Shown here piece after piece: positions 1 through 9,219 of a stretch of 9,862 nt of DNA (positions within the stretch are counted from its first letter, which is position 1; the number at the start of each line of letters is the position of its first letter). The notes under the pieces were generated by a model. The model had not been told where the DNA came from. It saw only the letters and a list, made by a program, of their open reading frames with translations, and made no database searches. The position numbers and the translations under genes were made by a program. The stretch is from a virus (Duplodnaviria > Heunggongvirae > Uroviricota > Caudoviricetes). The stretch is taken from the IMG/VR virus record IMGVR_UViG_2778261502_000003, positions 1 through 9,862 of that record. One strand, 5' to 3'.

Positions 1-897
1 TTAATCCAGACAGTTAGATTTTGCATTTTTGAACGTATACCTGTTTTGATGTAATGCTATGATCTCTTTAATATCATTTGCTGAGTAGCCATCAAGTTCA
101 ATTTCTGATATCTCACCTTCGATCAGCACGATTTTGGCTGTCTGATTACTGGATACCGTAGTAGATTTTGACTTGAGTGTCTTACGTCCTTTAATCAACC
201 ATGACCCGCCACCATCTTTGACCCAGTCAACAAGAGTCTCAGCCCAATGAGAACCTTTGAGTTTCAAATTGCCATCTTTGTTTTCAAAAATAGTGGTCAC
301 AGTATTTGCATTGGTATCTTTTTCAAGCTTCCGTAAATCATTGGTTAACGCTTGCTTACTGCTTCCGAAGATATTCGGAGTAATCAGCGTAAAGCTGACT
401 TTGTCGATAAATTGAAGCCTATGGTATTCTGACCAAAAATCTTCCATTTCAAGACAAGGCTCTATAAATATTCTAAGTCCTAACTGAGCCAAATAGTCGT
501 TATTGGCTAGATCTTCAAACGCTTTAGCAACTTGTTGCGCATCCTTGAAAACAGCGGTTTTCCTCTCAACCAGTAACACCTGCTCTACTTTGTCCCAAAT
601 CCATACGATAGGTGGATAGTTGTCTACATCGTACTCTCGAAAGTCTTTATCATGTCCTTTAATCTTTTGCAGCTTTGATATGACTCCAGCCATAACACCA
701 TCAGTAGGTTTTATGCTCAATTTCAGGGTGTAACTAGTTTTCTTATGAACGGAAGGTGTTGATGACGTCATGTGTAAATTTTTTGCAGCGATAACCATAG
801 CATTTTCAAAATGAGAGATATCTTTCTGAACAGTTCCTTTCGAAAAGAGGTCTGGATCGCGCGGTCTCATTAACACACGTAAGGCATACAACTGCAT
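1..897 (-). CDS. Hypothetical protein, 298 aa; integrase-adjacent prophage cargo gene of unknown family
   Basis: Complete minus-strand ORF (ATG at 895-897, TAA at 1-3). AGGAG Shine-Dalgarno about 7 nt upstream of the ATG. Visibly AT-rich compared with the phage structural genes. No HExxH motif (so not the Lit protease that e14 carries here) and no motif I can assign to a known family. Confidence 0.6.
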   Translation of the reverse strand: MQLYALRVLMRPRDPDLFSKGTVQKDISHFENAMVIAAKNLHMTSSTPSVHKKTSYTLKLSIKPTDGVMAGVISKLQKIKGHDKDFREYDVDNYPPIVWIWDKVEQVLLVERKTAVFKDAQQVAKAFEDLANNDYLAQLGLRIFIEPCLEMEDFWSEYHRLQFIDKVSFTLITPNIFGSSKQALTNDLRKLEKDTNANTVTTIFENKDGNLKLKGSHWAETLVDWVKDGGGSWLIKGRKTLKSKSTTVSSNQTAKIVLIEGEISEIELDGYSANDIKEIIALHQNRYTFKNAKSNCLD

Positions 898-1012: not shown

Positions 1013-1690
1013 TCAAACCTTGATTTTTGCCCATTCCTTACCACGATCATCATGGTATTTAGCTGTCTGGTTAGGCGATTTATGTCCCAGAAGTTTTTGG
1101 GTGTCGACGCCCTGAGCTTCGTAAAGTCGCTCAGATAAAGATCTTTGTTCATGGAATGTGGCGGGCGAACCTTCACCCCAGTCAATGCCTGCTAAATCCC
1201 TCGCTTTACTGAAATTCATCGTCAATGTATTGGCTTTTACTTGCGCGCCACGTTCAGCCTGTGAAGTAGTACGAAAAAAATGTACAAGGTATGGGCTGAC
1301 TGCATAGTCACGGCAGCGGGCTACTACATCGCGTAAACTCCAGTTAATTGCATTGAGGCGAAGGGAAAGCGGGATGGCGATTTTGCTCCCGGTTTTTTCT
1401 TGGATGACGTGAAGATGATCATCCCAAATATCGCTAAATTTCATACGTGAGATATCACCTAACCGTTGGCCGGTAACCAGTGCTAACAGCATGGCATTCC
1501 CCATATAACGATGGCGGGCATCTGCGATATCAAAGATTTTTTGCCATTCTTCAAGACTTAACCGTTGTCGGGTAATTTTTCTTCTGGGTTGTTTGGTTGC
1601 CAGTGCTGGATTATAGCCCGGAGGGACTTCCCCATAGTGTTGTGCCTCCTTGAATACATCAATTAGAACGGAGCGGACTACTTGCGCCAC
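1013..1690 (-). pseudogene. Lambda-family tyrosine integrase, C-terminal (catalytic-domain) fragment; N-terminal arm-binding/core-binding region missing
   Basis: Translation aligns block-for-block with the catalytic domain of lambda Int as I remember it: LALVTGQRLGDI (Arg box), KTGSKIAIPL, ATFHEQRSLSERLY (His/Arg box), LLGHKSPNQTAKYHDDRGKEW (Tyr nucleophile region). Only about 225 codons are present against roughly 350-400 for intact family members. The open frame begins at the junction with the terminase fragment. Confidence 0.85.
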
Positions 1691-1731
1691 CGGAGTGGTT
1701 CGCTGAAGAAGATCTCCCTCTCGCCACGATC

Positions 1732-2052
1732 ATGTGGCAACTGACAACCAAAGAACTCTGCGGTCAGGGCCTGCTGTGCGTGACTGACCTCGCGGTGCTT
1801 GAGCGGTGGTGCGTGGCCTATGAGTTCTGGCGACGTGCCGTGAAAAATATTGCCAGACAGGGCAACACCATCACCGGTGCAATGGGCGGCATGGTCAAAA
1901 ATCCGGAGCTGACCGCCAAAAAAGAACAGGAGTCCGAGATGAGCAGTACGGGGGCAATGCTCGGACTCGACCCCAGCAGCCGCCAGCGTCTGATTGGCCT
2001 GGCGGGGCAGAAGAAAGCCACTAACCCGTTTCTGAAAATTATCGAATCATGA
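1732..2052 (+). pseudogene. Small terminase subunit (P27/HK97-like), C-terminal fragment
   Basis: About 106 codons resembling the C-terminal half of P27-family small terminases. The stop overlaps the large terminase start in ATGA (2049-2052), the usual terS-terL coupling. The N-terminal half is absent; the frame is interrupted just upstream, next to the integrase fragment. Confidence 0.55.
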
Positions 2053-3782
2053 GCCGGAAATCTTACCCCAACGTAAATGCTGCAAATCAGTATGCCCGTG
2101 ATGTCGTGCGCGGAAAGATTGTGGCCTGCCAGTTTGTGATTCAGGCCTGCCAGCGCCATCTTGATGACCTGATGGCGGAAAAAAGTAAGTCGTTTCGTTA
2201 CCGCTTCGACAAGGACCTGGCTGAACGGGCCGCCAAATTTATTCAGCTGTTGCCGCACACCAAGGGTGAGTGGGCATTCAAGAGGATGCCTATCACGCTG
2301 GAGCCGTGGCAGCTCTTTGTGATCTGCTGCGCGTTTGGCTGGGTCAATAAAGGCTCCCGGCTGCGCCGCTTCCGTGAGGTGTATACCGAAATCCCCCGTA
2401 AGAACGGCAAATCGGCAATTTCTGCCGGTGTCGCCCTGTATTGTTTTGCCTGTGATAACGAGTTCGGCGCGGAAGTGTATTCCGGTGCCACGACGGAGAA
2501 ACAGGCATGGGAAGTCTTTCGTCCGGCAAGACTGATGTGTAAACGCACACCCATGCTGACGGAAGCGTTCGGGATTGAGGTTAACGCCTCAAACATGAAC
2601 CGTCCGGAGGATGGTGCGCGTTTTGAACCGCTGATCGGTAACCCCGGTGATGGTTCATCACCCCACTGTGCGGTGGTGGATGAATATCACGAGCACGCCA
2701 CCGATGCGCTTTACACCACGATGCTTACCGGGATGGGGGCGCGACGTCAGCCACTGATGTGGGCTATCACTACCGCCGGGTACAACATTGAGGGGCCGTG
2801 CTACGACAAACGGCGGGAAGTCATCGAGATGCTCAACGGCTCGGTGCCTAACGATGAACTGTTCGGGATTATCTATACCGTTGATGAAGGTGACGACTGG
2901 ACCGACCCGCAGGTGCTGGAAAAAGCTAACCCGAATATTGGCGTGTCGGTTTATCGCGAATTTTTGTTAAGTCAGCAGCAGCGTGCGAAAAATAACGCCC
3001 GTCTGGCAAACGTCTTTAAAACAAAACACCTCAATATCTGGGTGTCGGCGCGTTCGGCGTATTTCAACCTGGTGAGCTGGCAGAGCTGCGAGGATAAATC
3101 ACTGACCCTTGAGCAGTTCGAGGGGCAGCCGTGCATTCTGGCCTTTGACCTGGCGCGTAAGCTGGATATGAACAGCATGGCGCGACTTTATACCCGCGAG
3201 ATTGACGGTAAAACGCATTACTACAGTGTGGCCCCGCGTTTCTGGGTACCGTATGACACGGTGTACAGCGTCGAGAAAAATGAAGATCGACGGACAGCCG
3301 AACGCTTTCAGAAATGGGTGGAAATGGGCGTTCTGACCGTTACCGATGGTGCGGAGGTGGATTATCGCTACATCCTCGAGGAGGCCAAAGCGGCGAACAA
3401 AATCAGCCCGGTCAGTGAGTCACCCATTGACCCCTTCGGGGCGACCGGGTTGTCACATGACCTTGCTGATGAAGACCTGAACCCCATCACTATCATTCAG
3501 AACTACACCAACATGTCCGACCCGATGAAAGAGCTGGAAGCGGCAATTGAATCGGGGCGCTTTCATCATGATGGCAATCCCATCATGACCTGGTGTATCG
3601 GCAACGTGGTCGGCAAAACCATTCCGGGTAACGATGATGTGGTGAAGCCCGTCAAAGAGCAGGCGGAAAACAAAATCGATGGTGCAGTTGCGCTGATTAT
3701 GGCGGTTGGCAGAGCCATGCTGTACGAGAAAGAAGACACGCTGTCTGACCACATTGAGTCCTATGGGATCCGCTCGCTTTAA
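2049..3782 (+). CDS. Phage terminase large subunit (Terminase_1 / HK97-type)
   Basis: 577-aa ORF with a Walker A-like motif (PRKNGKS) and Walker B-like motif (AVVDEYHE) in the N-terminal ATPase region. Length and overall composition are typical of HK97-type large terminases. It is translationally coupled to the upstream terS fragment. High GC, typical of the phage backbone. Confidence 0.9.
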
Positions 3783-3793
3783 CTGAGGTAATT

Positions 3794-3976
3794 ATGATCA
3801 TGCTGATTCTCGCGCCTCTGGTGGGCGTGCTGGGGGCGCTTTTGCTGGCGTATGGTGCCTGGCTGATTTATCCCCCGGCGGGGTTTGTTGTTGCCGGGGC
3901 GTTGTGCCTGTTCTGGTCGTGGCTGGTGGCGCGATATCTCGACCGTACACAGTCGTCAGTCGGCGGAGGTAAATAG
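3794..3976 (+). CDS. Small hydrophobic protein (two predicted transmembrane helices), phage head-module ORF of unknown function
   Basis: 60-aa [56 protein letters not shown] Shine-Dalgarno upstream of the ATG. Its TAG stop overlaps the GTG start of the next gene (TAGTG). Confidence 0.45.
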
Positions 3977-4941
3977 TGTTCTTTTCGGGATTATTTCAAC
4001 GAAAAAGTGACGCACCGGTGACCACGCCAGCAGAGCTGGCGGACGCTATCGGGCTGTCCTACGACACCTATACCGGAAAGCAGATCAGCAGTCAGCGGGC
4101 CATGCGACTGACGGCGGTTTTTTCCTGCGTCAGGGTGCTGGCAGAGTCGGTCGGGATGTTGCCCTGCAACCTGTATCACCTGAACGGCAACCTGAAACAG
4201 AGAGCCACCGGCGAACGTCTGCATAAGCTGATTTCCACGCATCCCAATGGCTATATGACGCCGCAGGAGTTTTGGGAGCTGGTGGTCACCTGTCTGTGCC
4301 TGCGGGGAAACTTTTACGCCTACAAAGTGAAAGCATTTGGCGAAGTGGCTGAACTGCTGCCCGTCGATCCCGGCTGTGTGGTAACCGAATTTGCCGAACA
4401 GGAAGAAATTGCCTTTACCACCGGCGATGGTACCAAGAAGCCGAAAGGGTTCCTGGCGTATGAATCCACTGATGAAACCGATAAGGTCCGGGCGTTCGGC
4501 AAACTTCAGCATATTGTATCCGGCGAAGCGACGGCGGTGACCGCAGACGCCATTATCAAACTGATTTACACGCTGCGTAAGGCACACCGCACTGGCGCGA
4601 AGTTCATGATGAACAACAACAGCCTGTTTGCCATCCGTCTGCTTAAAGACAGCGAGGGTAACTATCTGTGGCGTCCGGGGCTGGAACTGGGGCAGCCGTC
4701 CTCTCTGGCGGGTTACGGTATCGCTGAAAACGAACAGATGCCGGATATCGCCGCTGATGCGAAAGCCATTGCATTTGGTAACTTCAAACGGGGTTACACC
4801 ATCGTTGACCGTATCGGCACCCGCATTCTGCGTGACCCGTACACCAATAAACCGTTTGTCGGTTTTTATACCACCAAGCGCACCGGCGGGATGCTGGTCG
4901 ATTCGCAGGCCATCAAACTGCTGAAGATTGCAGCGGCGTAA
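3976..4941 (+). CDS. Chimeric ORF: HK97-family portal N-terminus fused in frame to HK97-fold major capsid protein C-terminus (deletion derivative, probably non-functional)
   Basis: GTG start with a GGAGG Shine-Dalgarno 7 nt upstream. Residues about 1-140 look like a portal N-terminus (SSQRAMRLTAVFSCVRVLAESVGMLPCNLY ... GNFYAYKV). Residues about 180-321 look like a major capsid C-terminus (YLWRPGLELGQPSSLAGYGIAENEQMPDIA ... AIAFGNFKRGYTIVDRIGTRILRDPYTNKPFVGFYTTKRTGG ... AIKLLK). At 321 aa it is too short to be either protein, and no prohead protease is present. Confidence 0.65.
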   Translation: MFFSGLFQRKSDAPVTTPAELADAIGLSYDTYTGKQISSQRAMRLTAVFSCVRVLAESVGMLPCNLYHLNGNLKQRATGERLHKLISTHPNGYMTPQEFWELVVTCLCLRGNFYAYKVKAFGEVAELLPVDPGCVVTEFAEQEEIAFTTGDGTKKPKGFLAYESTDETDKVRAFGKLQHIVSGEATAVTADAIIKLIYTLRKAHRTGAKFMMNNNSLFAIRLLKDSEGNYLWRPGLELGQPSSLAGYGIAENEQMPDIAADAKAIAFGNFKRGYTIVDRIGTRILRDPYTNKPFVGFYTTKRTGGMLVDSQAIKLLKIAAA

Positions 4942-4947
4942 TCACTC

Positions 4948-4975
4948 AGGGGCGCGGAACCGCGCCCCCTGTTCT
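4948..4975 (+). terminator. GC-rich hairpin downstream of the capsid-fusion ORF (possible intrinsic terminator)
   Basis: AGGGGCGCGG-AA-CCGCGCCCCT is a perfect inverted repeat (4948-4969) followed by GTTCTG. The U-tract is weak, so efficiency is uncertain. Confidence 0.35.
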
Positions 4976-4988
4976 GACGGGTGAAGAA

Positions 4989-5204
4989 TCATGATCCTGA
5001 AACAAGATCTGAAATGGTCACCGGACGGTAAACCTTTGCCAGTTCCGGGTATTCTTCAGCAGAAAAAGCCGCACCATTGCATTTTAGCCAGCCTGTTGGC
5101 GGAGTGGCGGAAGGCCACGGGACAGGCACACCAACGGGTAATGCCGAACCTTCTCCCAAACCAACGTTTATGAAAATGCAGAAATAACGAGCAAATGGCA
5201 TCAT
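4989..5204 (-). pseudogene. Tail-fibre variable-region fragment (Stf / Mu S-type), stub of the invertible segment
   Basis: The minus-strand ORF contains LPVGVPVPWPSATPPTGWLKCNGAAFSAEEYPELAKVY. This is the PWPS...GW..C.G..F....YP.L motif that opens the variable C-terminal part of Mu S / P1 S / e14 Stf tail fibres. The reading frame stops about 45 residues later and no constant N-terminal part is present. Confidence 0.45.
5151..5176. other. Candidate pix/gix-like recombination site (crossover site of the Pin invertible segment)
   Basis: TTCTCCCAAACC-AA-CGTTTATGAAAA is two imperfect inverted 12-bp half-sites around a 2-bp core. The left half matches 10/12 to the gix half-site TTATCCAAAACC recalled from memory. 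It sits where expected, between the tail-fibre variable-region start and pin. Confidence 0.3.
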
Positions 5205-5230
5205 TCCTGCTTTTGTCAGAGGGATCCACT

Positions 5231-5422
5231 ATGCTTATTGGCTATGTACGCGTATCAATAAATGACCAGAACACAGATCTACAACGTAATGCGTTGAACT
5301 GTGCAGGATGCGAGCTGATTTTTGAAGACAAGATAAGCGGTACAAAGTCCGAGAGCCTAGGGCTGACAGTGCTGTTCTTGATGCAAATTAAAGGATTTAA
5401 TAGTGAGTTGCGGCCTTACTAA
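5231..5422 (+). pseudogene. pin: Serine DNA invertase (Pin/Gin/Hin family), N-terminal fragment
   Basis: MLIGYVRVSINDQNTDLQRNALNCAGCELIFEDKISGTKSE matches the N-terminal catalytic block of Gin/Hin/Pin invertases, including the catalytic serine in YVRVS. Similarity is lost after about 45 codons and the frame runs into unrelated AT-rich sequence. The ORF track's 5195 start is an in-frame upstream ATG; ATG 5231 is the likelier native start. Confidence 0.75.
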
Positions 5423-5433
5423 TGTAAGGCCGC
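5410..5433. terminator. Perfect 10-bp-stem hairpin between the convergent pin stub and the GmrSD-like gene (likely bidirectional terminator)
   Basis: GCGGCCTTAC-TAAT-GTAAGGCCGC is a perfect inverted repeat, followed on the plus strand by the T-rich TATAATCATTTTATT. It lies 23 bp from the stop of the minus-strand gene. Confidence 0.4.
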
Positions 5434-5455
5434 TATAATCATTTTATTAATTGCA

Positions 5456-7345
5456 TTAATCGTATTTTGGCCATACTTTCAATGCAATTTCCCCCAACTT
5501 TTTACCTCGCTCCAGTATTTCACTCTCATCCCATTTATCCTTAAGTATAAGTGGTATGTTCAGTCGTAGATTGGTGTGGACGATGAGAGCATCACGTTTT
5601 TTCAGAAATACAGCATTCTGAACGGAACGGTTTACGCTAAGGTTAAGCAAAGTTAGATTTCCCAACGTAGCTATCGTTTGTTGCCGTTTCCTTACCAGTA
5701 GCTGTTCAGGGGTAAGATCGGTTCCAGACAGAACAATTTGGTTCATTACCGTAGCATCTGAATTTGTCACCATATGACCATTTTCGAGAGGCCAACAGGA
5801 ATACCAACTTTGAGGCATAAGATGATCGATATCGAGATTAGAAAGATTTGGAACATCAGGCTTTTCTGTCTTCACTTGGCGACAAAGTTCTCTTTCAAGT
5901 TCCGTTAACATTGAGCGCATTTTCGGTGCGTCGAGCCTGCCAGGATAAAGTGGAGCATTGATGCAAGCGTTGAGAAATTCTGAGTCCCCAGGCCAACGTG
6001 AGGCTTCGCCATTTAAGCTATTGAGGATATTACGTAACTCAATACTGGAAATTTCCGTTTTAGACAAGTGTCGCAATACATTCATAAATACATTGTTGTA
6101 ATTCTTTGGCGTCAGGCCACATACGGATCTTCGTACTACGTAGGAGACAAGATCATTATACATGGCTGCTTTCTCATCATCGGCGATGTTAGCTATCGAA
6201 ATGAACAAAGCAAGCGGATAGAGTGTCGTCACATCATAGGCTGCGATGCGATGTCCAAAGTGTGAGATGGGGGTTGTGCCAAAACCACCAACCAATTCTT
6301 TATATTGTGATGCATATTGTTTGAGGCGCTTTACTTGCAGATCTGCTCGTTGTGAAGGCAAGTCCTTACTTACATAATCACGATACTCATTGTAAAGGCG
6401 AGACAGATCAATTTCACGCTGCCTTTCTGATTGCAATGTCGCATGTACAAGCCACTCCATGCGTGGTTTATTAATACGTCCACGGCGTTGCTTTTCCGAC
6501 CAGTATTTATCTTCAAAGATCTTCCACTCATTTTCATATAATTCAATAGTATTAATATTTTCATGCTCAGCGCACATAAAGATATAGTTGCGAATAAGAT
6601 CCGTTGCATGAAGTTCCGCTCCTCGCCCATTTAATGTTTCAAAAATTATTTGGGCATCATCTTCAGCTTCGAGAAATATGCTTACCAGTTTCAGATCCGT
6701 CAAGACAGCCTCAATTAGTGCTACAGCATTTTCTTGTGGTGAGCGGTTTTCTATTTTAATCCATTTTATAAAGGCTTCAGTAAAAAACCATAATGCCTCT
6801 AGTGACGGCGGGTGGTTGAAATGTTTACGTAACGTACCATGTTGCGTGAAGCTATCAGAAAATACATTACGGAGATCGTCAATATTATCAACATTAAGAC
6901 TTTGAATAAAATGAGTTTGATCTCGAAAAGTTGGCCACAGTTTGAAGCATTCTACCTTTTTATTTCTCATCGTTGCTTCGTTTGTATTTTTCAAGCAAGT
7001 CAATACTAACCCTTCCAGTTCAGAAAGGCCTGTAGCACGCAATGATAATCGAATGGATGCCAGAATATATTGAAGAGTGGTTAAACGTTGCTGGCCGTCA
7101 ATAATATGTATGGTATCTACACCTAACAAGCTGTTTTTGAGTTGAGGTTCCAGCACCACCGCGCCGAGGAAATGAGGGGTTGGTTTTGTTCCCGAAAGTC
7201 GGCTCTGTGCTTTTTCGAAGATATCCTCCAGCAAAGCTGACCATTGGTTTCGTTGCGTCCATACGTAGGCACGTTGATAGAATGGAACACGATATTGTCG
7301 TTGATTTTGGAAAATTTGCTGGATGGTTAGCGTTTCGGATTTCAT
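5456..7345 (-). CDS. GmrSD-like Type IV (modification-dependent) restriction endonuclease; DUF262 (ParB-like NTPase) N-terminal domain plus DUF1524 (His-Me finger nuclease) C-terminal domain
   Basis: 629-aa ORF. N-terminus has the DUF262 signature: FYQRAYVWT, then IHIIDGQQRLTTL (DGQQR at residues 83-87, plus-strand 7085-7099). C-terminus has the DUF1524 signature: DIDHLMPQSW (His codon at 5822-5824), then LGNLTLLNLSVNRSVQNAVFLKK. AT-rich and convergent with the pin stub. The architecture matches GmrSD, BrxU and SspE. Confidence 0.8.
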   Translation of the reverse strand: MKSETLTIQQIFQNQRQYRVPFYQRAYVWTQRNQWSALLEDIFEKAQSRLSGTKPTPHFLGAVVLEPQLKNSLLGVDTIHIIDGQQRLTTLQYILASIRLSLRATGLSELEGLVLTCLKNTNEATMRNKKVECFKLWPTFRDQTHFIQSLNVDNIDDLRNVFSDSFTQHGTLRKHFNHPPSLEALWFFTEAFIKWIKIENRSPQENAVALIEAVLTDLKLVSIFLEAEDDAQIIFETLNGRGAELHATDLIRNYIFMCAEHENINTIELYENEWKIFEDKYWSEKQRRGRINKPRMEWLVHATLQSERQREIDLSRLYNEYRDYVSKDLPSQRADLQVKRLKQYASQYKELVGGFGTTPISHFGHRIAAYDVTTLYPLALFISIANIADDEKAAMYNDLVSYVVRRSVCGLTPKNYNNVFMNVLRHLSKTEISSIELRNILNSLNGEASRWPGDSEFLNACINAPLYPGRLDAPKMRSMLTELERELCRQVKTEKPDVPNLSNLDIDHLMPQSWYSCWPLENGHMVTNSDATVMNQIVLSGTDLTPEQLLVRKRQQTIATLGNLTLLNLSVNRSVQNAVFLKKRDALIVHTNLRLNIPLILKDKWDESEILERGKKLGEIALKVWPKYD

Positions 7346-7601
7346 TGTTTACCTATAAATAACATTAAGTGACATTCTACAAGAGTAAGAAATTCATCTG
7401 AGTCAGAACAATCATTTTTATGTAGTTATGATACAGTGTATTTGTTACTGGTGAAGTAAAAATAAGAAACCCCGCTTTTGAATGCTGACGCGCTACGGTT
7501 TCATTGGATATTTTTTGTCTCTCCTCCATCCCGTTGGTGTTCTGTTTAGACTGATAACTTGCTGTTTTAATTGATATTAGTTTCTTGCGCCGCCCAATCA
7601 T

Positions 7602-7635
7602 GGTTGGTGGGTTGGTGGGTTGGTGGGTTGGTGGG
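7602..7635. repeat. Perfect tandem octanucleotide repeat (GGTTGGTG)x4 plus a partial unit
   Basis: Four exact head-to-tail copies of GGTTGGTG at 7602-7633, followed by GG. A degenerate GTTGGTG also occurs about 70 bp away (about 7533). It lies in the non-coding region upstream of the GmrSD-like gene on the minus strand. The G-rich strand has four GGG runs. Confidence 0.9.
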
Positions 7636-8162
7636 AGTTAAATCCACATTGGTATGAATAACATAGAATATGAATTAGTGTTTCAGAATTGCTTCAGCCA
7701 TCACTTTTTAATACGTTCAATTTGAATGTTTATTTCCGAAACAATTTTTTCAGGTTTCAGTCCCTCGTTAGATTGCACAAAATCTCTAATTTGCATCATT
7801 CGATGTGCACAAATTTGTAATTCGCTATAAACACTTAGCTCGTCAGATTCATTTTGAGATTGTTCACCTGTTTAAAATTCTACATAAGTATGTGGCGGAT
7901 TGTGATAAACACGAGAAATCGGGGTTGGCCACCATTCCTCACCGGTCACTACGTCCGCATCGAATAGTACAGTTTTGTCAATTTCCATTAATTTCTGGAT
8001 AAGAACAGAAGTTTTCAAGCGAACCTCCATTTTGCCATAAAGTGGTTATCAAAACGCTACGTAAACTATACAAAATCAGCGAGTTATGGTGAAGGTAAAA
8101 AAACAAGTTTAGATGTTCGTTAAGTATAAAATTGTTTTAATTCAATTGGATATAATAATTTT

Positions 8163-8335
8163 CTAAATCTAATGTTACGCCATATGGGCTGGACTGAAGC
8201 CGCAGACCTGATTGTTAAAGGTATGGAAGGCGCAATCAATGCGAAGACCGTAACCTATGACTTCGAGCGTTTGATGGAAGGCGCTAAACTGCTGAAATGT
8301 TCAGAATTTGGTGATGCGATCATCAAGAACATGTA
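8163..8335 (+). pseudogene. icdC: icd 3'-terminal fragment (icdC-type remnant created by prophage integration into isocitrate dehydrogenase gene); marks attR
   Basis: Translation [54 protein letters not shown]-stop matches the C-terminal ~55 residues of E. coli isocitrate dehydrogenase as I remember them, with two substitutions. The sequence upstream of about 8163 is unrelated AT-rich DNA, so only the 3' end of the gene is present. Confidence 0.85.
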
Positions 8336-8359
8336 ATCACTACATGTGTTTAATATTGC

Positions 8360-8391
8360 AACGGGCGTATAACACGCCCGTTGTTTTATTT
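8360..8391 (+). terminator. Rho-independent terminator of icd
   Basis: AACGGGCGT-ATAAC-ACGCCCGTT is a perfect 9-bp stem, followed by TGTTTTATTT, 25 bp after the icd stop codon. Confidence 0.7.
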
Positions 8392-8438
8392 ATGTAGGTA
8401 TTATTAATAGCATATCGAGCATATTTATATAAAACCCT

Positions 8439-8762
8439 TTACTTGAGCCCATATGGGCATATTTTTATAATGCAACTATTATGCAAACATTTATTTGTTA
8501 TTTTGCTTTCTCCTGGAGGACACTCTTGACTGCTTTTGAGTAGACTCCATAAATCCTTGTTGAATGGTGCGATGTTATAAATAGTAATAGGATATTCTTT
8601 ATCTTTAAGGATAATTCCAGATTTAACCGGTGTAAATATACTGCCAGGAGGGAGAAATATAGTAGATTGATACCAGATGATCATTTTCATATTACCCCAT
8701 ATGGCTGAAAAAGATATGCCGCATGAAGGTTGAATTATCGTGTCAATTACTATCCACTTCAT
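8439..8762 (-). CDS. iraM: Anti-adaptor protein IraM (RpoS stabiliser, PhoPQ-regulated)
   Basis: 107-aa [35 protein letters not shown]...ICPYGLK matches my recollection of E. coli IraM (YcgW) nearly residue for residue. Its position immediately downstream of icdC and upstream of ycgX matches K-12 synteny. Very AT-rich. Confidence 0.8.
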
Positions 8763-9219
8763 TTGTTATGTCTTATCCCACGGTATTTAATATAGTTCAT
8801 TTGGATGTTCATTTCTTTATTTTGCATATGAGTATATTACCCCTTCAAAAAATAAATTAATTAAAACGATTGCTTATATAAAACAAAATTTAAAGCAAGG
8901 AATCTCAATGGATGTTAAACAAAATGAGATTTAGTGAAAACAATAAATTATTCACTTCGTTTTAGATTTGTTTAGCTATAATGTTATACATTCAAATGAC
9001 TGAACATCCTGTAATTAAAGCATAGCCTTTATGCTACTTTGTGCCAATTTGCTAAACATTATGGTTGCCTTTTTATATAACGATAATAATGAATATAAGC
9101 ATGACATGAGAATAAGGTTTCAATTTTTGAGTTATATAGGAAAGGTTTAACCTGTTCCTGGCTAAAATACATATAACTGGATGATGACTAAACCAAAACA
9201 CATGTGCGTTAAGTATTGA

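What the first reader, a model, noticed from the sequence alone, without database searches (positions are those of the whole stretch)
7602..7635. Perfect (GGTTGGTG)x4 tandem repeat upstream of the restriction gene
Four exact 8-bp units in a row are unlikely by chance in AT-rich intergenic DNA. The repeat sits about 260 bp upstream of the GmrSD-like start codon and immediately 5' of a small minus-strand ORF (7377-7601), whose ATG abuts the repeat. Possibilities: a slippage-prone SSR altering promoter spacing (unit length 8 would change helical phasing), a G-quadruplex-forming element on the G-rich strand, or a scar of the cargo insertion. Restriction systems are a classic target of repeat-mediated phase variation, though usually through shorter units.
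Basis: seen in the sequence. Interest (0 to 1): 0.45.

Follow-up and report, generated by a model that had tools for sequence, protein, structure and literature searches.

The report
Variable 8-bp repeat from tmRNA-gene relic
The four-copy GGTTGGTG repeat is real and its copy number varies (2 to 11) among E. coli strains, but it is best explained as a slippage-prone remnant of a decayed copy of the tmRNA gene's 3' end left at a prophage cargo junction, not as a demonstrated switch for the neighbouring restriction gene.

Summary
In detail: (GGTTGGTG)x4 plus GG lies at 7602-7635, 256 nt upstream of the GmrSD start codon, and is far beyond chance.

The window is the right end of an e14-like prophage integrated at icd in E. 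coli. Of 5,426 complete genomes, 55 carry this locus. By locus length their unit numbers are 2, 3, 4, 5, 6, 7 and 11. I confirmed this by direct counting in 14 of them, plus 5 viral and 9 metagenome contigs. Flanks that are identical over 2.85 kb carry different copy numbers, so the array mutates quickly by slippage.

The array sits exactly where related prophages carry a perfect copy of the last 26-27 nt of ssrA (the tmRNA gene), followed by the ssrA downstream flank and terminator. The two-unit allele differs from K-12's displaced ssrA fragment (psaA) by three transitions. The array is therefore a decayed attachment-site relic that became a VNTR (variable-number tandem repeat).

A regulatory role is not supported. 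The only sigma-70-like promoter lies 146 bp downstream of the array and is conserved in GmrSD cassettes that lack the repeat. No allele from 0 to 12 units creates a promoter across the array. The abutting 74-aa ORF is spurious.

A G-quadruplex motif is formally present once there are four or more units. Interest is low to moderate.

The parts
7602..7635 (.). Octamer array (GGTTGGTG)x4 plus GG. On the minus strand it reads CC(CACCAACC)x4. Copy number is polymorphic between strains.
   Evidence: TRF, sequence, allele counts in other genomes.
7602..7647 (-). Decayed copy of the 3' end of ssrA (tmRNA gene). The T-arm remnant is GGATTTAACTCC on the minus strand, corresponding to GGGTTCAACTCC in ssrA. 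The acceptor 3' strand and CCA have been replaced by the array.
   Evidence: Alignments A1 and A2. The orthologous position in L016 and L017 is 26-27 nt identical to the K-12 ssrA 3' end. Rfam tmRNA hit on L016, E=1.4e-9. Direct blastn of the window against genuine ssrA plus flank gives 84/110 identities, E=2e-19.
7456..7601 (-). Decayed copy of the non-coding region that follows ssrA in the E. coli chromosome. It includes a ruined version of the ssrA terminator at about 7462-7502.
   Evidence: The 169 bp following the ssrA copy in L016 occur in 4,217 of 5,426 genomes, either abutting ssrA or, as in K-12, at the far end (attR) of an ssrA island. Colinear alignment. Terminator fold is -8.9 kcal/mol (z -0.4) in the window, against -27.4 and -26.1 kcal/mol (z -3.7 and -4.7) in L016 and native ssrA.
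7377..7601 (-). 74-aa ORF abutting the array. Judged spurious.
   Evidence: Truncated to 51 aa in L010 and 7 aa in L011. All 5 substitutions seen are non-synonymous. No feature is annotated there in RefSeq. It overlies non-coding ssrA flank homology.
7428..7455 (-). Candidate sigma-70 promoter of the GmrSD gene (TTCACC, 16-nt spacer, TATCAT, with TG just before the -10). This is inferred, not mapped.
   Evidence: Consensus scan. Conserved in the window, L005 and L015; in UTI89 the -10 is kept and the -35 reads TTAATC. L015 and UTI89 carry no repeat. It lies inside the 180-bp block shared with the CP4-6-type locus.
5456..7345 (-). Single-chain GmrSD Type IV restriction enzyme, 629 aa.
   Evidence: Pfam GmrSD_N 2.1e-33 and GmrSD_C 2.1e-19. 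PADLOC mREase_IV, 1514.6 bits, full length. Same length and same prophage tail-fibre context as the characterised Eco94GmrSD (PMC4437046).
7701..8030 (-). Pseudogene of a 113-aa prophage-end gene of unknown function, with an in-frame TAA at 7872-7874 and a frame change near the 3' end.
   Evidence: Alignment with the intact, annotated genes in L016 and L017. No feature is annotated there in any listed GmrSD-carrying genome. No Pfam, PHROG or PADLOC family.
8169..8336 (+). icdC, the displaced 3' fragment of icd. It marks attR, the right end of the e14-like prophage.
   Evidence: RefSeq annotation of the identical locus in strain LST200A, mapped onto window coordinates. Homology to K-12 icdC onward.
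7609..7635 (+). Formal G-quadruplex motif GGG TTGGT GGG TTGGT GGG TTGGT GGG, present only in alleles with four or more units.
   Evidence: G-tract positions and ViennaRNA gquad folding of the G-rich strand, with RNA parameters only.

Best explanation
The array is a polymorphic tandem repeat (VNTR) that arose inside a decayed copy of the 3' end of the tmRNA gene ssrA.

A prophage cargo cassette carries, upstream of its GmrSD restriction gene, a captured junction of the type found where phages integrate into ssrA. That junction consists of the last ~26 nt of ssrA (T-arm, acceptor strand, CCA), followed by the ssrA downstream flank and terminator. The copy no longer has to rebuild a working tmRNA gene, so it decayed.

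In the lineage sitting in e14-like prophages at icd, three transitions turned the already repeat-like CGCCAGCC|CACCAATC into a perfect CACCAACC|CACCAACC. Replication slippage has since expanded and contracted it between 2 and at least 11 units.

Shown: the homology, the position, and the copy-number variation on near-identical backgrounds. Inferred: slippage as the mechanism, the order of events, and the conclusion that the array does not switch the GmrSD gene, which appears to have its own promoter 146 bp downstream of the array.
For: Polymorphism:
- Locus lengths in 55 complete genomes differ in steps of 8 bp. They imply 2 units (14 genomes), 3 (14), 4 (7), 5 (4), 6 (13), 7 (1) and 11 (2).
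- Direct counts in 14 fetched loci agree and show variant units GGTTGATG, GGTGGGTG and GGTTAGTG.
- IMG/VR contigs show 3, 4, 4, 7 and at least 10 units. Metagenome contigs show 2, 2, 4, 4, 4, 4, 5, 7 and at least 7.
- L006 (x5) and L012 (x6) have 0 differences in 2,853 bp of flank. L007 (x5) and L013 (x6) have 1. The window (x4) and L008 (x3) have 3.

Origin:
- L016 and L017 are e14-like prophages at icd with other cargo. At the homologous spot they carry a perfect GGGTTCAACTCCCGCCAGCTCCACCA, matching K-12 ssrA over 27/27 nt at E=2e-9, and L016 gives an Rfam tmRNA hit at E=1.4e-9.
- The following 169 bp is the ssrA downstream flank, present in 4,217 of 5,426 genomes. It abuts the genuine ssrA in strains PSS-10 and ETEC4088.
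- The window aligns directly to genuine ssrA plus flank at 84/110, E=2e-19. The two-unit allele aligns at 91/120, E=4e-21, colinear from the T-loop through the flank (alignment A2).
- K-12's displaced fragment psaA reads CGCCAGCCCACCAATC, against CACCAACCCACCAACC in the two-unit allele: three transitions and no indel.
- Decayed ssrA-like leaders without any repeat precede GmrSD homologues in strain S3 and UTI89.

Against a switch:
- The only promoter-like site is 146 bp away. It is conserved in the window, L005 and the repeat-less S3 cassette; UTI89 keeps the -10 but has TTAATC at the -35.
- No real ORF contains the array.
Against: - No expression data exist for this locus, and the promoter assignment is a consensus match only.
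- The ssrA terminator between the array and the gene is ruined in the window. Transcripts starting upstream could therefore run through the array into GmrSD, which leaves room for a length-dependent effect.
- GmrSD enzymes are toxic when over-expressed (PMC4437046), so fine control of expression would be selectable.
- Pairs of near-clonal genomes share the same length (H62/H63, H68/H69, H73/H75). The mutation rate is therefore moderate and was not measured.
- The three-transition path from psaA-type sequence to the repeat is a parsimony argument, not a reconstructed phylogeny.
Confidence: 0.75

Rival explanations
1. The array is a contingency (phase or rheostat) switch for the GmrSD restriction gene. 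Unit number would change promoter geometry, an upstream activating element, or the length and structure of a read-through leader, and so tune a toxic defence enzyme.
For: Copy number is clearly variable. The array lies upstream of a restriction gene and in the same transcriptional orientation. No strong terminator separates it from the gene in this lineage. A promoter-like site at 8065-8093 upstream of the pseudogene could drive read-through. GmrSD over-expression is toxic.
Against: The array is 146 bp upstream of the -35 of the only promoter-like site. No allele of 0-12 units creates a promoter spanning it. GmrSD cassettes in strain S3 (about 28 genomes of this type) and UTI89 keep the -10 element and leader without any repeat (S3 also keeps the -35; UTI89 has TTAATC there), and the UTI89 enzyme is reported to be active. 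Allele sizes show no on/off pattern, and an 8-bp step gives no clean helical periodicity.
Confidence: 0.1
2. The G-rich strand forms a G-quadruplex with a biological effect, such as blocking read-through transcription or stalling replication, in alleles with four or more units.
For: The window allele has four GGG tracts separated by 5-nt loops (7609-7635). ViennaRNA with G-quadruplex folding places two-tetrad quadruplexes in every allele tested from 2 to 11 units. The unit pair GGTTGGTGGGTTGG resembles the thrombin-binding aptamer GGTTGGTGTGGTTGG (my own knowledge). The G-rich strand is the template strand for GmrSD-direction transcription.
Against: 28 of the 55 genomes have only 2-3 units, which cannot give the three-tetrad motif. 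The folding used RNA parameters on an isolated strand. Duplex chromosomal DNA competes strongly with quadruplex formation. There is no evidence of selection for four or more units.
Confidence: 0.05
3. There is translational phase variation of a small protein. When the unit number is 2, 5, 8 or 11, a GTG 14 nt upstream of the array comes into frame with the 74-aa ORF, giving products of 84-108 aa.
For: The frame arithmetic holds, and alleles of all three frame classes occur.
Against: The ORF is frameshifted in L010 and L011. Every substitution seen is non-synonymous. It has no Pfam family (not searched in other libraries) and is never annotated. It overlies DNA homologous to the non-coding ssrA flank and terminator, and the homologous DNA in L016 differs by indels.
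Confidence: 0.03
4. The array is a protein-binding or recombination element. One version is multiplied crossover cores recognised by an ssrA-specific integrase, used to swap cargo cassettes between prophages.
For: The array derives from the att core region CGCCAGCTCCACCA used by ssrA-targeting integrases (table citing Williams 2003 in PMC10107115). Three different cargo cassettes sit next to this relic in e14-like prophages, and identical cargo sits next to the genuine ssrA in ETEC4088.
Against: The core is mutated at three positions in every unit. Copy number is unconstrained. The cassettes with a perfect core (L016, L017) have no array.
Confidence: 0.03

Closest known systems
Displaced ssrA/tRNA 3' fragments at the borders of integrated elements, such as psaA (b4645) at the right end of CP4-57 in E. 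coli K-12, and tandem islands at the tmRNA gene (Williams 2003, as cited in PMC10107115)
   Same: It is a 3' fragment of ssrA followed by the ssrA downstream flank, lying at the edge of mobile-element cargo. The two-unit allele is colinear with psaA plus flank and differs from it by three transitions.
   Different: It lies inside a prophage integrated at icd rather than at the ssrA locus. The sequence has decayed to about 76% identity, and the acceptor/CCA part has become an expandable 8-bp array. I found no example of that elsewhere.
Bacterial VNTR loci of the kind used for MLVA strain typing in E. coli
   Same: It is an intergenic tandem repeat with conserved flanks. Unit number differs between strains and changes faster than point substitutions accumulate.
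   Different: The unit is 8 bp. The locus exists in only about 1% of complete genomes, those carrying this prophage cassette. I found no paper containing the sequence.
Simple-sequence contingency loci that phase-vary restriction-modification genes (Haemophilus and Neisseria mod genes; own knowledge)
   Same: It is a slippage-prone repeat physically associated with a restriction gene.
   Different: Those repeats lie within the reading frame or the core promoter. This one lies in neither. Homologous cassettes work without it.
Eco94GmrSD / UTI89 GmrSD, prophage-borne single-chain Type IV restriction enzymes (PMC4437046)
   Same: The neighbouring gene has the same length (629 aa), the same DUF262 plus DUF1524 architecture, and the same position next to prophage tail-fibre genes.
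   Different: This concerns the neighbouring gene, not the repeat. The paper does not describe the upstream region.

Membership tests
Polymorphic tandem repeat (VNTR) | Head-to-tail copies of one unit, beyond chance | tested here: met
   TRF score 68 with 100% matches. No shuffle out of 200 reaches the observed count.
Polymorphic tandem repeat (VNTR) | Unit number differs among strains while flanks stay conserved | tested here: met
   2-11 units in 55 genomes. Counted directly in 14 RefSeq, 5 viral and 9 metagenome loci. Flanks with 0-3 differences in 2,853 bp carry different unit numbers.
Contingency locus (repeat-mediated phase variation) | Repeat lies inside the reading frame of the controlled gene | tested here: not met
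   The array is 256 nt upstream of the GmrSD ATG. The only ORF touching it is spurious.
Contingency locus (repeat-mediated phase variation) | Repeat lies within or overlaps the core promoter (between -35 and -10) or a regulator site | tested here: not met
   The only sigma-70-like site is 146 bp away. None spans the array for 0-12 units. This is a consensus scan only, and regulator sites cannot be tested.
Contingency locus (repeat-mediated phase variation) | Expression of the gene switches with unit number | not testable with these tools
   Needs reporter or RNA measurements on isogenic alleles.
ssrA (tmRNA gene) 3'-fragment attachment-site relic | Sequence homologous to the 3' end of ssrA (T-arm, acceptor strand, CCA) | tested here: met
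   Orthologous site in L016 and L017 matches over 26-27 nt without mismatch. Rfam tmRNA E=1.4e-9 on L016. The window copy has decayed but aligns at 84/110, E=2e-19. The window itself gives no Rfam hit.
ssrA (tmRNA gene) 3'-fragment attachment-site relic | Followed by the DNA that follows ssrA in the chromosome | tested here: met
   The flank is found in 4,217 of 5,426 genomes, abutting ssrA or (as in K-12) at the far end of an ssrA island. Colinear alignment A2.
ssrA (tmRNA gene) 3'-fragment attachment-site relic | Lacks the body of the tmRNA gene and lies at the border of mobile-element DNA | tested here: met
   No tmRNA or tRNA gene by Rfam in the window, or by ARAGORN in L001, which holds the identical locus. 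It lies between prophage cargo and the prophage end at icdC.
ssrA (tmRNA gene) 3'-fragment attachment-site relic | Produced by an integrase-mediated event at ssrA | not testable with these tools
   Inferred from ETEC4088, where a complete prophage is bounded by two 26-bp ssrA cores and carries the same cargo and flank.
G-quadruplex-forming sequence | Four tracts of three or more G separated by loops of 1-7 nt | tested here: met
   GGG at 7609-11, 7617-19, 7625-27 and 7633-35 with 5-nt loops. Not met in alleles of 2-3 units, which make up 28 of the 55 genomes.
G-quadruplex-forming sequence | Quadruplex actually forms and has an effect | not testable with these tools
   Only single-strand folding with RNA parameters was possible.

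The most novel reading that the evidence does not exclude
The array acts as a heritable, reversible dial on a toxic Type IV restriction enzyme. The ssrA terminator behind it is ruined, so transcripts from the prophage-end promoter would run through the array into GmrSD. Unit number would then set how much read-through reaches the gene, either through leader length or through a G-quadruplex on the template strand that exists only at four or more units. That would be an E. coli prophage defence gene tuned by a repeat born from a tmRNA-gene relic.
Probability: 0.08. Interest if true: 0.6.

Novelty: new member of a known kind. Interest (0 to 1): 0.25.

Why it matters
This is a clean example of how a tandem repeat is born. 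A tRNA-like acceptor/CCA sequence that was already repeat-like, once freed from function as a displaced attachment-site fragment, needed only three transitions to become a perfect 8-bp duplication that slippage could then expand. It also marks a cargo junction shared by prophages integrated at ssrA and at icd, where GmrSD, RnlAB and a type II restriction system replace one another. That is useful for tracing how defence cassettes move. In practice the locus could serve as a strain-typing marker within the roughly 1% of E. coli that carry it. It does not at present reveal new regulation.

Tried and rejected
- CP4-57 int-side arm: I asked whether the leader between the array and GmrSD resembles the ssrA-intA arm of K-12 CP4-57. 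It does not; only the ssrA core matches.
- Second GmrSD locus at ssrA: I asked whether the second chromosomal locus carrying a homologous GmrSD (strain S3 type) is an ssrA-integrated prophage. It lies next to the yagP/pao genes instead.
- tRNA or tmRNA gene: ARAGORN finds none at the relic in L001, L015, L016 or L017. The window gives no Rfam tmRNA hit even at E up to 10.
- Mini-tmRNA: the end-to-end Rfam alignment in L016 includes a 5' GGGGCUGAA inside the 113-aa ORF. The window has GGGACUG there, a synonymous codon change, so I treat it as chance.
- K-12 e14: it lacks the whole segment and carries mcrA instead. Homology starts only at icdC.
- Other species: a scan of one genome per species for left flank plus two units found nothing.
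- Other viral occurrences: seven other viral contigs with three or more units are unrelated loci.
- Literature: no paper contains the 16-mer in either strand or register.
- Whole window: it matches no complete genome as one piece.
- Protein families: the 113-aa and 298-aa proteins have no significant match in Pfam, PHROGs or PADLOC.

Full report
**Observation**

The window reads catGGTTGGTGGGTTGGTGGGTTGGTGGGTTGGTGGGagtt at 7599-7639. Tandem Repeats Finder gives 7602-7635, period 8, 4.2 copies, 100% matches and score 68. A two-unit probe matches only inside the array, against 0.01 matches expected in dinucleotide shuffles. The array begins 256 nt from the ATG of a 629-aa minus-strand gene (5456-7345). 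That gene has Pfam GmrSD_N and GmrSD_C domains and a full-length PADLOC Type IV restriction match.

**Setting**

The right side of the window holds iraM and ycgX. Annotation of the identical locus in E. coli LST200A places icdC at window 8169-8336. icdC is the displaced 3' piece of icd and marks the right end of e14-type prophages.

The left side holds a truncated integrase, the two terminase subunits, a portal/capsid fusion and an invertase fragment. The window is therefore a heavily deleted e14-like prophage at icd. The GmrSD gene is cargo near its right end. No complete genome in the collection holds the window as a single piece. K-12's own e14 carries mcrA there and lacks this whole segment.

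**Copy number varies**

A 551-bp probe around the array finds the full locus in 55 of 5,426 complete E. coli genomes. Match lengths are 535, 543, 551, 559, 567, 575 and 607 bp, which are steps of 8. Two further genomes have 541 and 542 bp because of 1-2 bp deletions elsewhere. These lengths imply the following distribution.

| Units | 2 | 3 | 4 | 5 | 6 | 7 | 11 |
|---|---|---|---|---|---|---|---|
| Genomes | 14 | 14 | 7 | 4 | 13 | 1 | 2 |

- Direct counting in 14 fetched loci confirms this. It also shows variant units GGTTGATG, GGTGGGTG and GGTTAGTG.
- Five viral-collection contigs of the same locus have 3, 4, 4, 7 and at least 10 units.
- Nine metagenome contigs have 2, 2, 4, 4, 4, 4, 5, 7 and at least 7 units.
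- Flanks of 2,853 bp with no differences (L006 x5 against L012 x6), one difference (L007 x5 against L013 x6) or three differences (window x4 against L008 x3) carry different unit numbers.
- Both flank haplotypes contain several alleles.

The array therefore changes repeatedly and faster than point substitutions accumulate. Near-clonal genome pairs share the same length, so the rate is moderate rather than extreme.

**Origin**

Two other e14-like prophages at icd carry different cargo. L016 carries rnlB (the adjacent rnlA is replaced by an IS3 insertion) plus an 89-aa gene, and L017 carries a type II restriction system. Both also keep an intact 113-aa gene next to icdC.

At the position of the array, both read GGGTTCAACTCCCGCCAGCTCCACCA on the minus strand.
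- This matches the 3' end of K-12 ssrA, the tmRNA gene, over 27 of 27 nt.
- It gives an Rfam tmRNA hit on L016 at E=1.4e-9.

The 169 bp that follow it include a strong terminator. They occur in 4,217 of 5,426 genomes.
- They abut the genuine ssrA in strains PSS-10 and ETEC4088.
- In K-12 they lie at the far end of the ssrA-integrated element CP4-57.

In ETEC4088 a complete lambdoid prophage is bounded by two 26-bp ssrA cores. Its cargo end reads ssrA, flank, 89-aa gene, rnlBA, invertase fragment, tail fibres. The flank is 100% identical to L016's and the cargo proteins carry the same accessions.

The window's copy has decayed but is clearly the same DNA.
- It aligns to genuine ssrA plus flank at 84/110, E=2e-19.
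- The two-unit allele aligns at 91/120, E=4e-21, colinear from the T-loop through the flank.
- K-12's displaced fragment psaA reads CGCCAGCCCACCAATC. The two-unit allele reads CACCAACCCACCAACC. The difference is three transitions and no indel.
- psaA lacks T357, the deletion reported to result from CP4-57 excision (PMC10107115).

The ancestral sequence was already an imperfect 8-bp direct repeat, with 5 of 8 positions matching between its two halves. Three transitions made it perfect, and slippage could then act on it.

GmrSD homologues in strain S3 (a prophage next to the yagP/pao genes) and in UTI89 (3.8 kb downstream of the genuine ssrA) are also preceded by decayed ssrA-like leaders, with no repeat. 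The relic therefore belongs to the GmrSD cassette, and the array is specific to the icd lineage.

**Does it regulate the restriction gene?**

- Within 200 bp the consensus scan finds one sigma-70-like site, TTCACC-16-TATCAT on the minus strand at 7455-7428. It lies 146 bp on the gene side of the array.
- That site sits inside the 180-bp block shared with the S3-type locus. It is conserved in the window, L005 and L015; in the UTI89 cassette, at about 78% overall identity, the -10 is kept but the -35 reads TTAATC.
- Synthetic alleles of 0-12 units never create a promoter across the array.
- No ORF of 40 aa or more contains the array.

The 74-aa ORF whose ATG abuts the array is not a credible gene.
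- It is cut to 51 aa and 7 aa in two strains.
- It shows only amino-acid-changing substitutions.
- No feature is annotated there.
- It overlies non-coding ssrA flank homology.

Alleles with 2, 5, 8 or 11 units would fuse an upstream GTG to that ORF. Given the state of the ORF, this is not meaningful.

Two points keep a regulatory role from being excluded.
- The ssrA terminator is ruined in this lineage: -8.9 kcal/mol (z -0.4), against -27.4 and -26.1 kcal/mol (z -3.7 and -4.7) in L016 and native ssrA.
- A promoter-like site upstream of the 113-aa pseudogene, at 8093-8065, could send transcripts through the array.

In addition, Eco94GmrSD, a characterised enzyme of the same length and the same prophage context, is toxic when over-expressed (PMC4437046). 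These are possibilities, not evidence.

**G-quadruplex**

With four units plus the trailing GG, the plus strand reads GGG-TTGGT-GGG-TTGGT-GGG-TTGGT-GGG at 7609-7635, which fits the standard motif. ViennaRNA with quadruplex folding places two-tetrad quadruplexes in every allele tested (RNA parameters, isolated strand). Alleles of 2-3 units, which make up 28 of the 55 genomes, cannot give the three-tetrad motif. This argues against selection for it.

**Comparison with known things**

The array is a VNTR by both defining tests. It is an ssrA 3'-fragment relic by sequence, by flank, and by position at a mobile-element border. It fails the positional criteria of a contingency locus, and expression could not be tested.

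I found no paper containing the sequence and no occurrence in a one-genome-per-species scan. I file it as a new member of known kinds: a prophage-borne VNTR descended from a tmRNA-gene attachment-site relic.

**Verdict**

The promoter-spacing idea lacks support. I put 0.75 on the relic-turned-VNTR explanation with no switching role. I put about 0.1 on some expression effect and less on each of the other rivals. Interest is 0.25.

Noticed in passing
L016 3835-4030, L017 2500-2710, L021 2977-3170, window 7456-7647: Three different defence cargo cassettes (GmrSD, RnlAB plus an 89-aa gene, a type II restriction system) sit in e14-like prophages at icd, always next to an ssrA 3' copy plus ssrA flank. 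The RnlAB cassette with a 100% identical flank also lies beside the genuine ssrA in the ssrA-integrated prophage of ETEC4088. Cargo appears to move between prophages at ssrA and at icd, using the invertase/tail-fibre side and the ssrA-flank side as shared ends.
   Followed up: partly
window 7701-8030 (-); L016 4058-4399 (-): A 113-aa acidic protein gene at the extreme right end of these prophages has no Pfam, PHROG or PADLOC family. It is annotated as a gene in the four near-identical (at least 99%) genomes. In the GmrSD-carrying loci aligned here (window, L003) it is a pseudogene with an in-frame TAA at 7872-7874, and no feature is annotated there in the GmrSD-carrying genomes. The gene occurs in only 59 of 5,426 genomes.
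   Followed up: partly
L016 4002-4145 (-): Rfam's tmRNA model aligns end to end here. The alignment includes a 5' GGGGCUGAA that would pair with the 3' acceptor strand, giving a 144-nt 'mini tmRNA'. The 5' piece lies inside the 113-aa ORF and differs in the window by a synonymous codon change, so it is probably chance. I did not exclude it.
   Followed up: partly
window 1-897 (-): A 298-aa ORF next to the truncated integrase has no match in Pfam, PHROGs or PADLOC. It sits at the int-proximal end of the prophage (where, from memory, K-12 e14 carries lit, ymfD and ymfE) and could be uncharacterised cargo.
   Followed up: no
window 1013-5456: The prophage is heavily deleted: truncated integrase (225 aa), terminase subunits, a 321-aa portal/capsid fusion, then a tail-fibre fragment and a 144-bp invertase fragment. 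This exact configuration is in none of the 5,426 complete genomes.
   Followed up: partly
L036 (UTI89) 4140-9164: In UTI89 the GmrSD homologue (the 'UT enzyme' of the literature) lies 3.8 kb downstream of the genuine ssrA. Behind the intervening cargo block it has its own decayed ssrA-like leader. This looks like successive accretion of elements at ssrA.
   Followed up: partly
window 8341-8411 (+): A strong hairpin just after icdC gives a sub-threshold Rfam match to the sRNA family tpke11 (26.4 bits, E=0.083). It is most likely the icd terminator.
   Followed up: no
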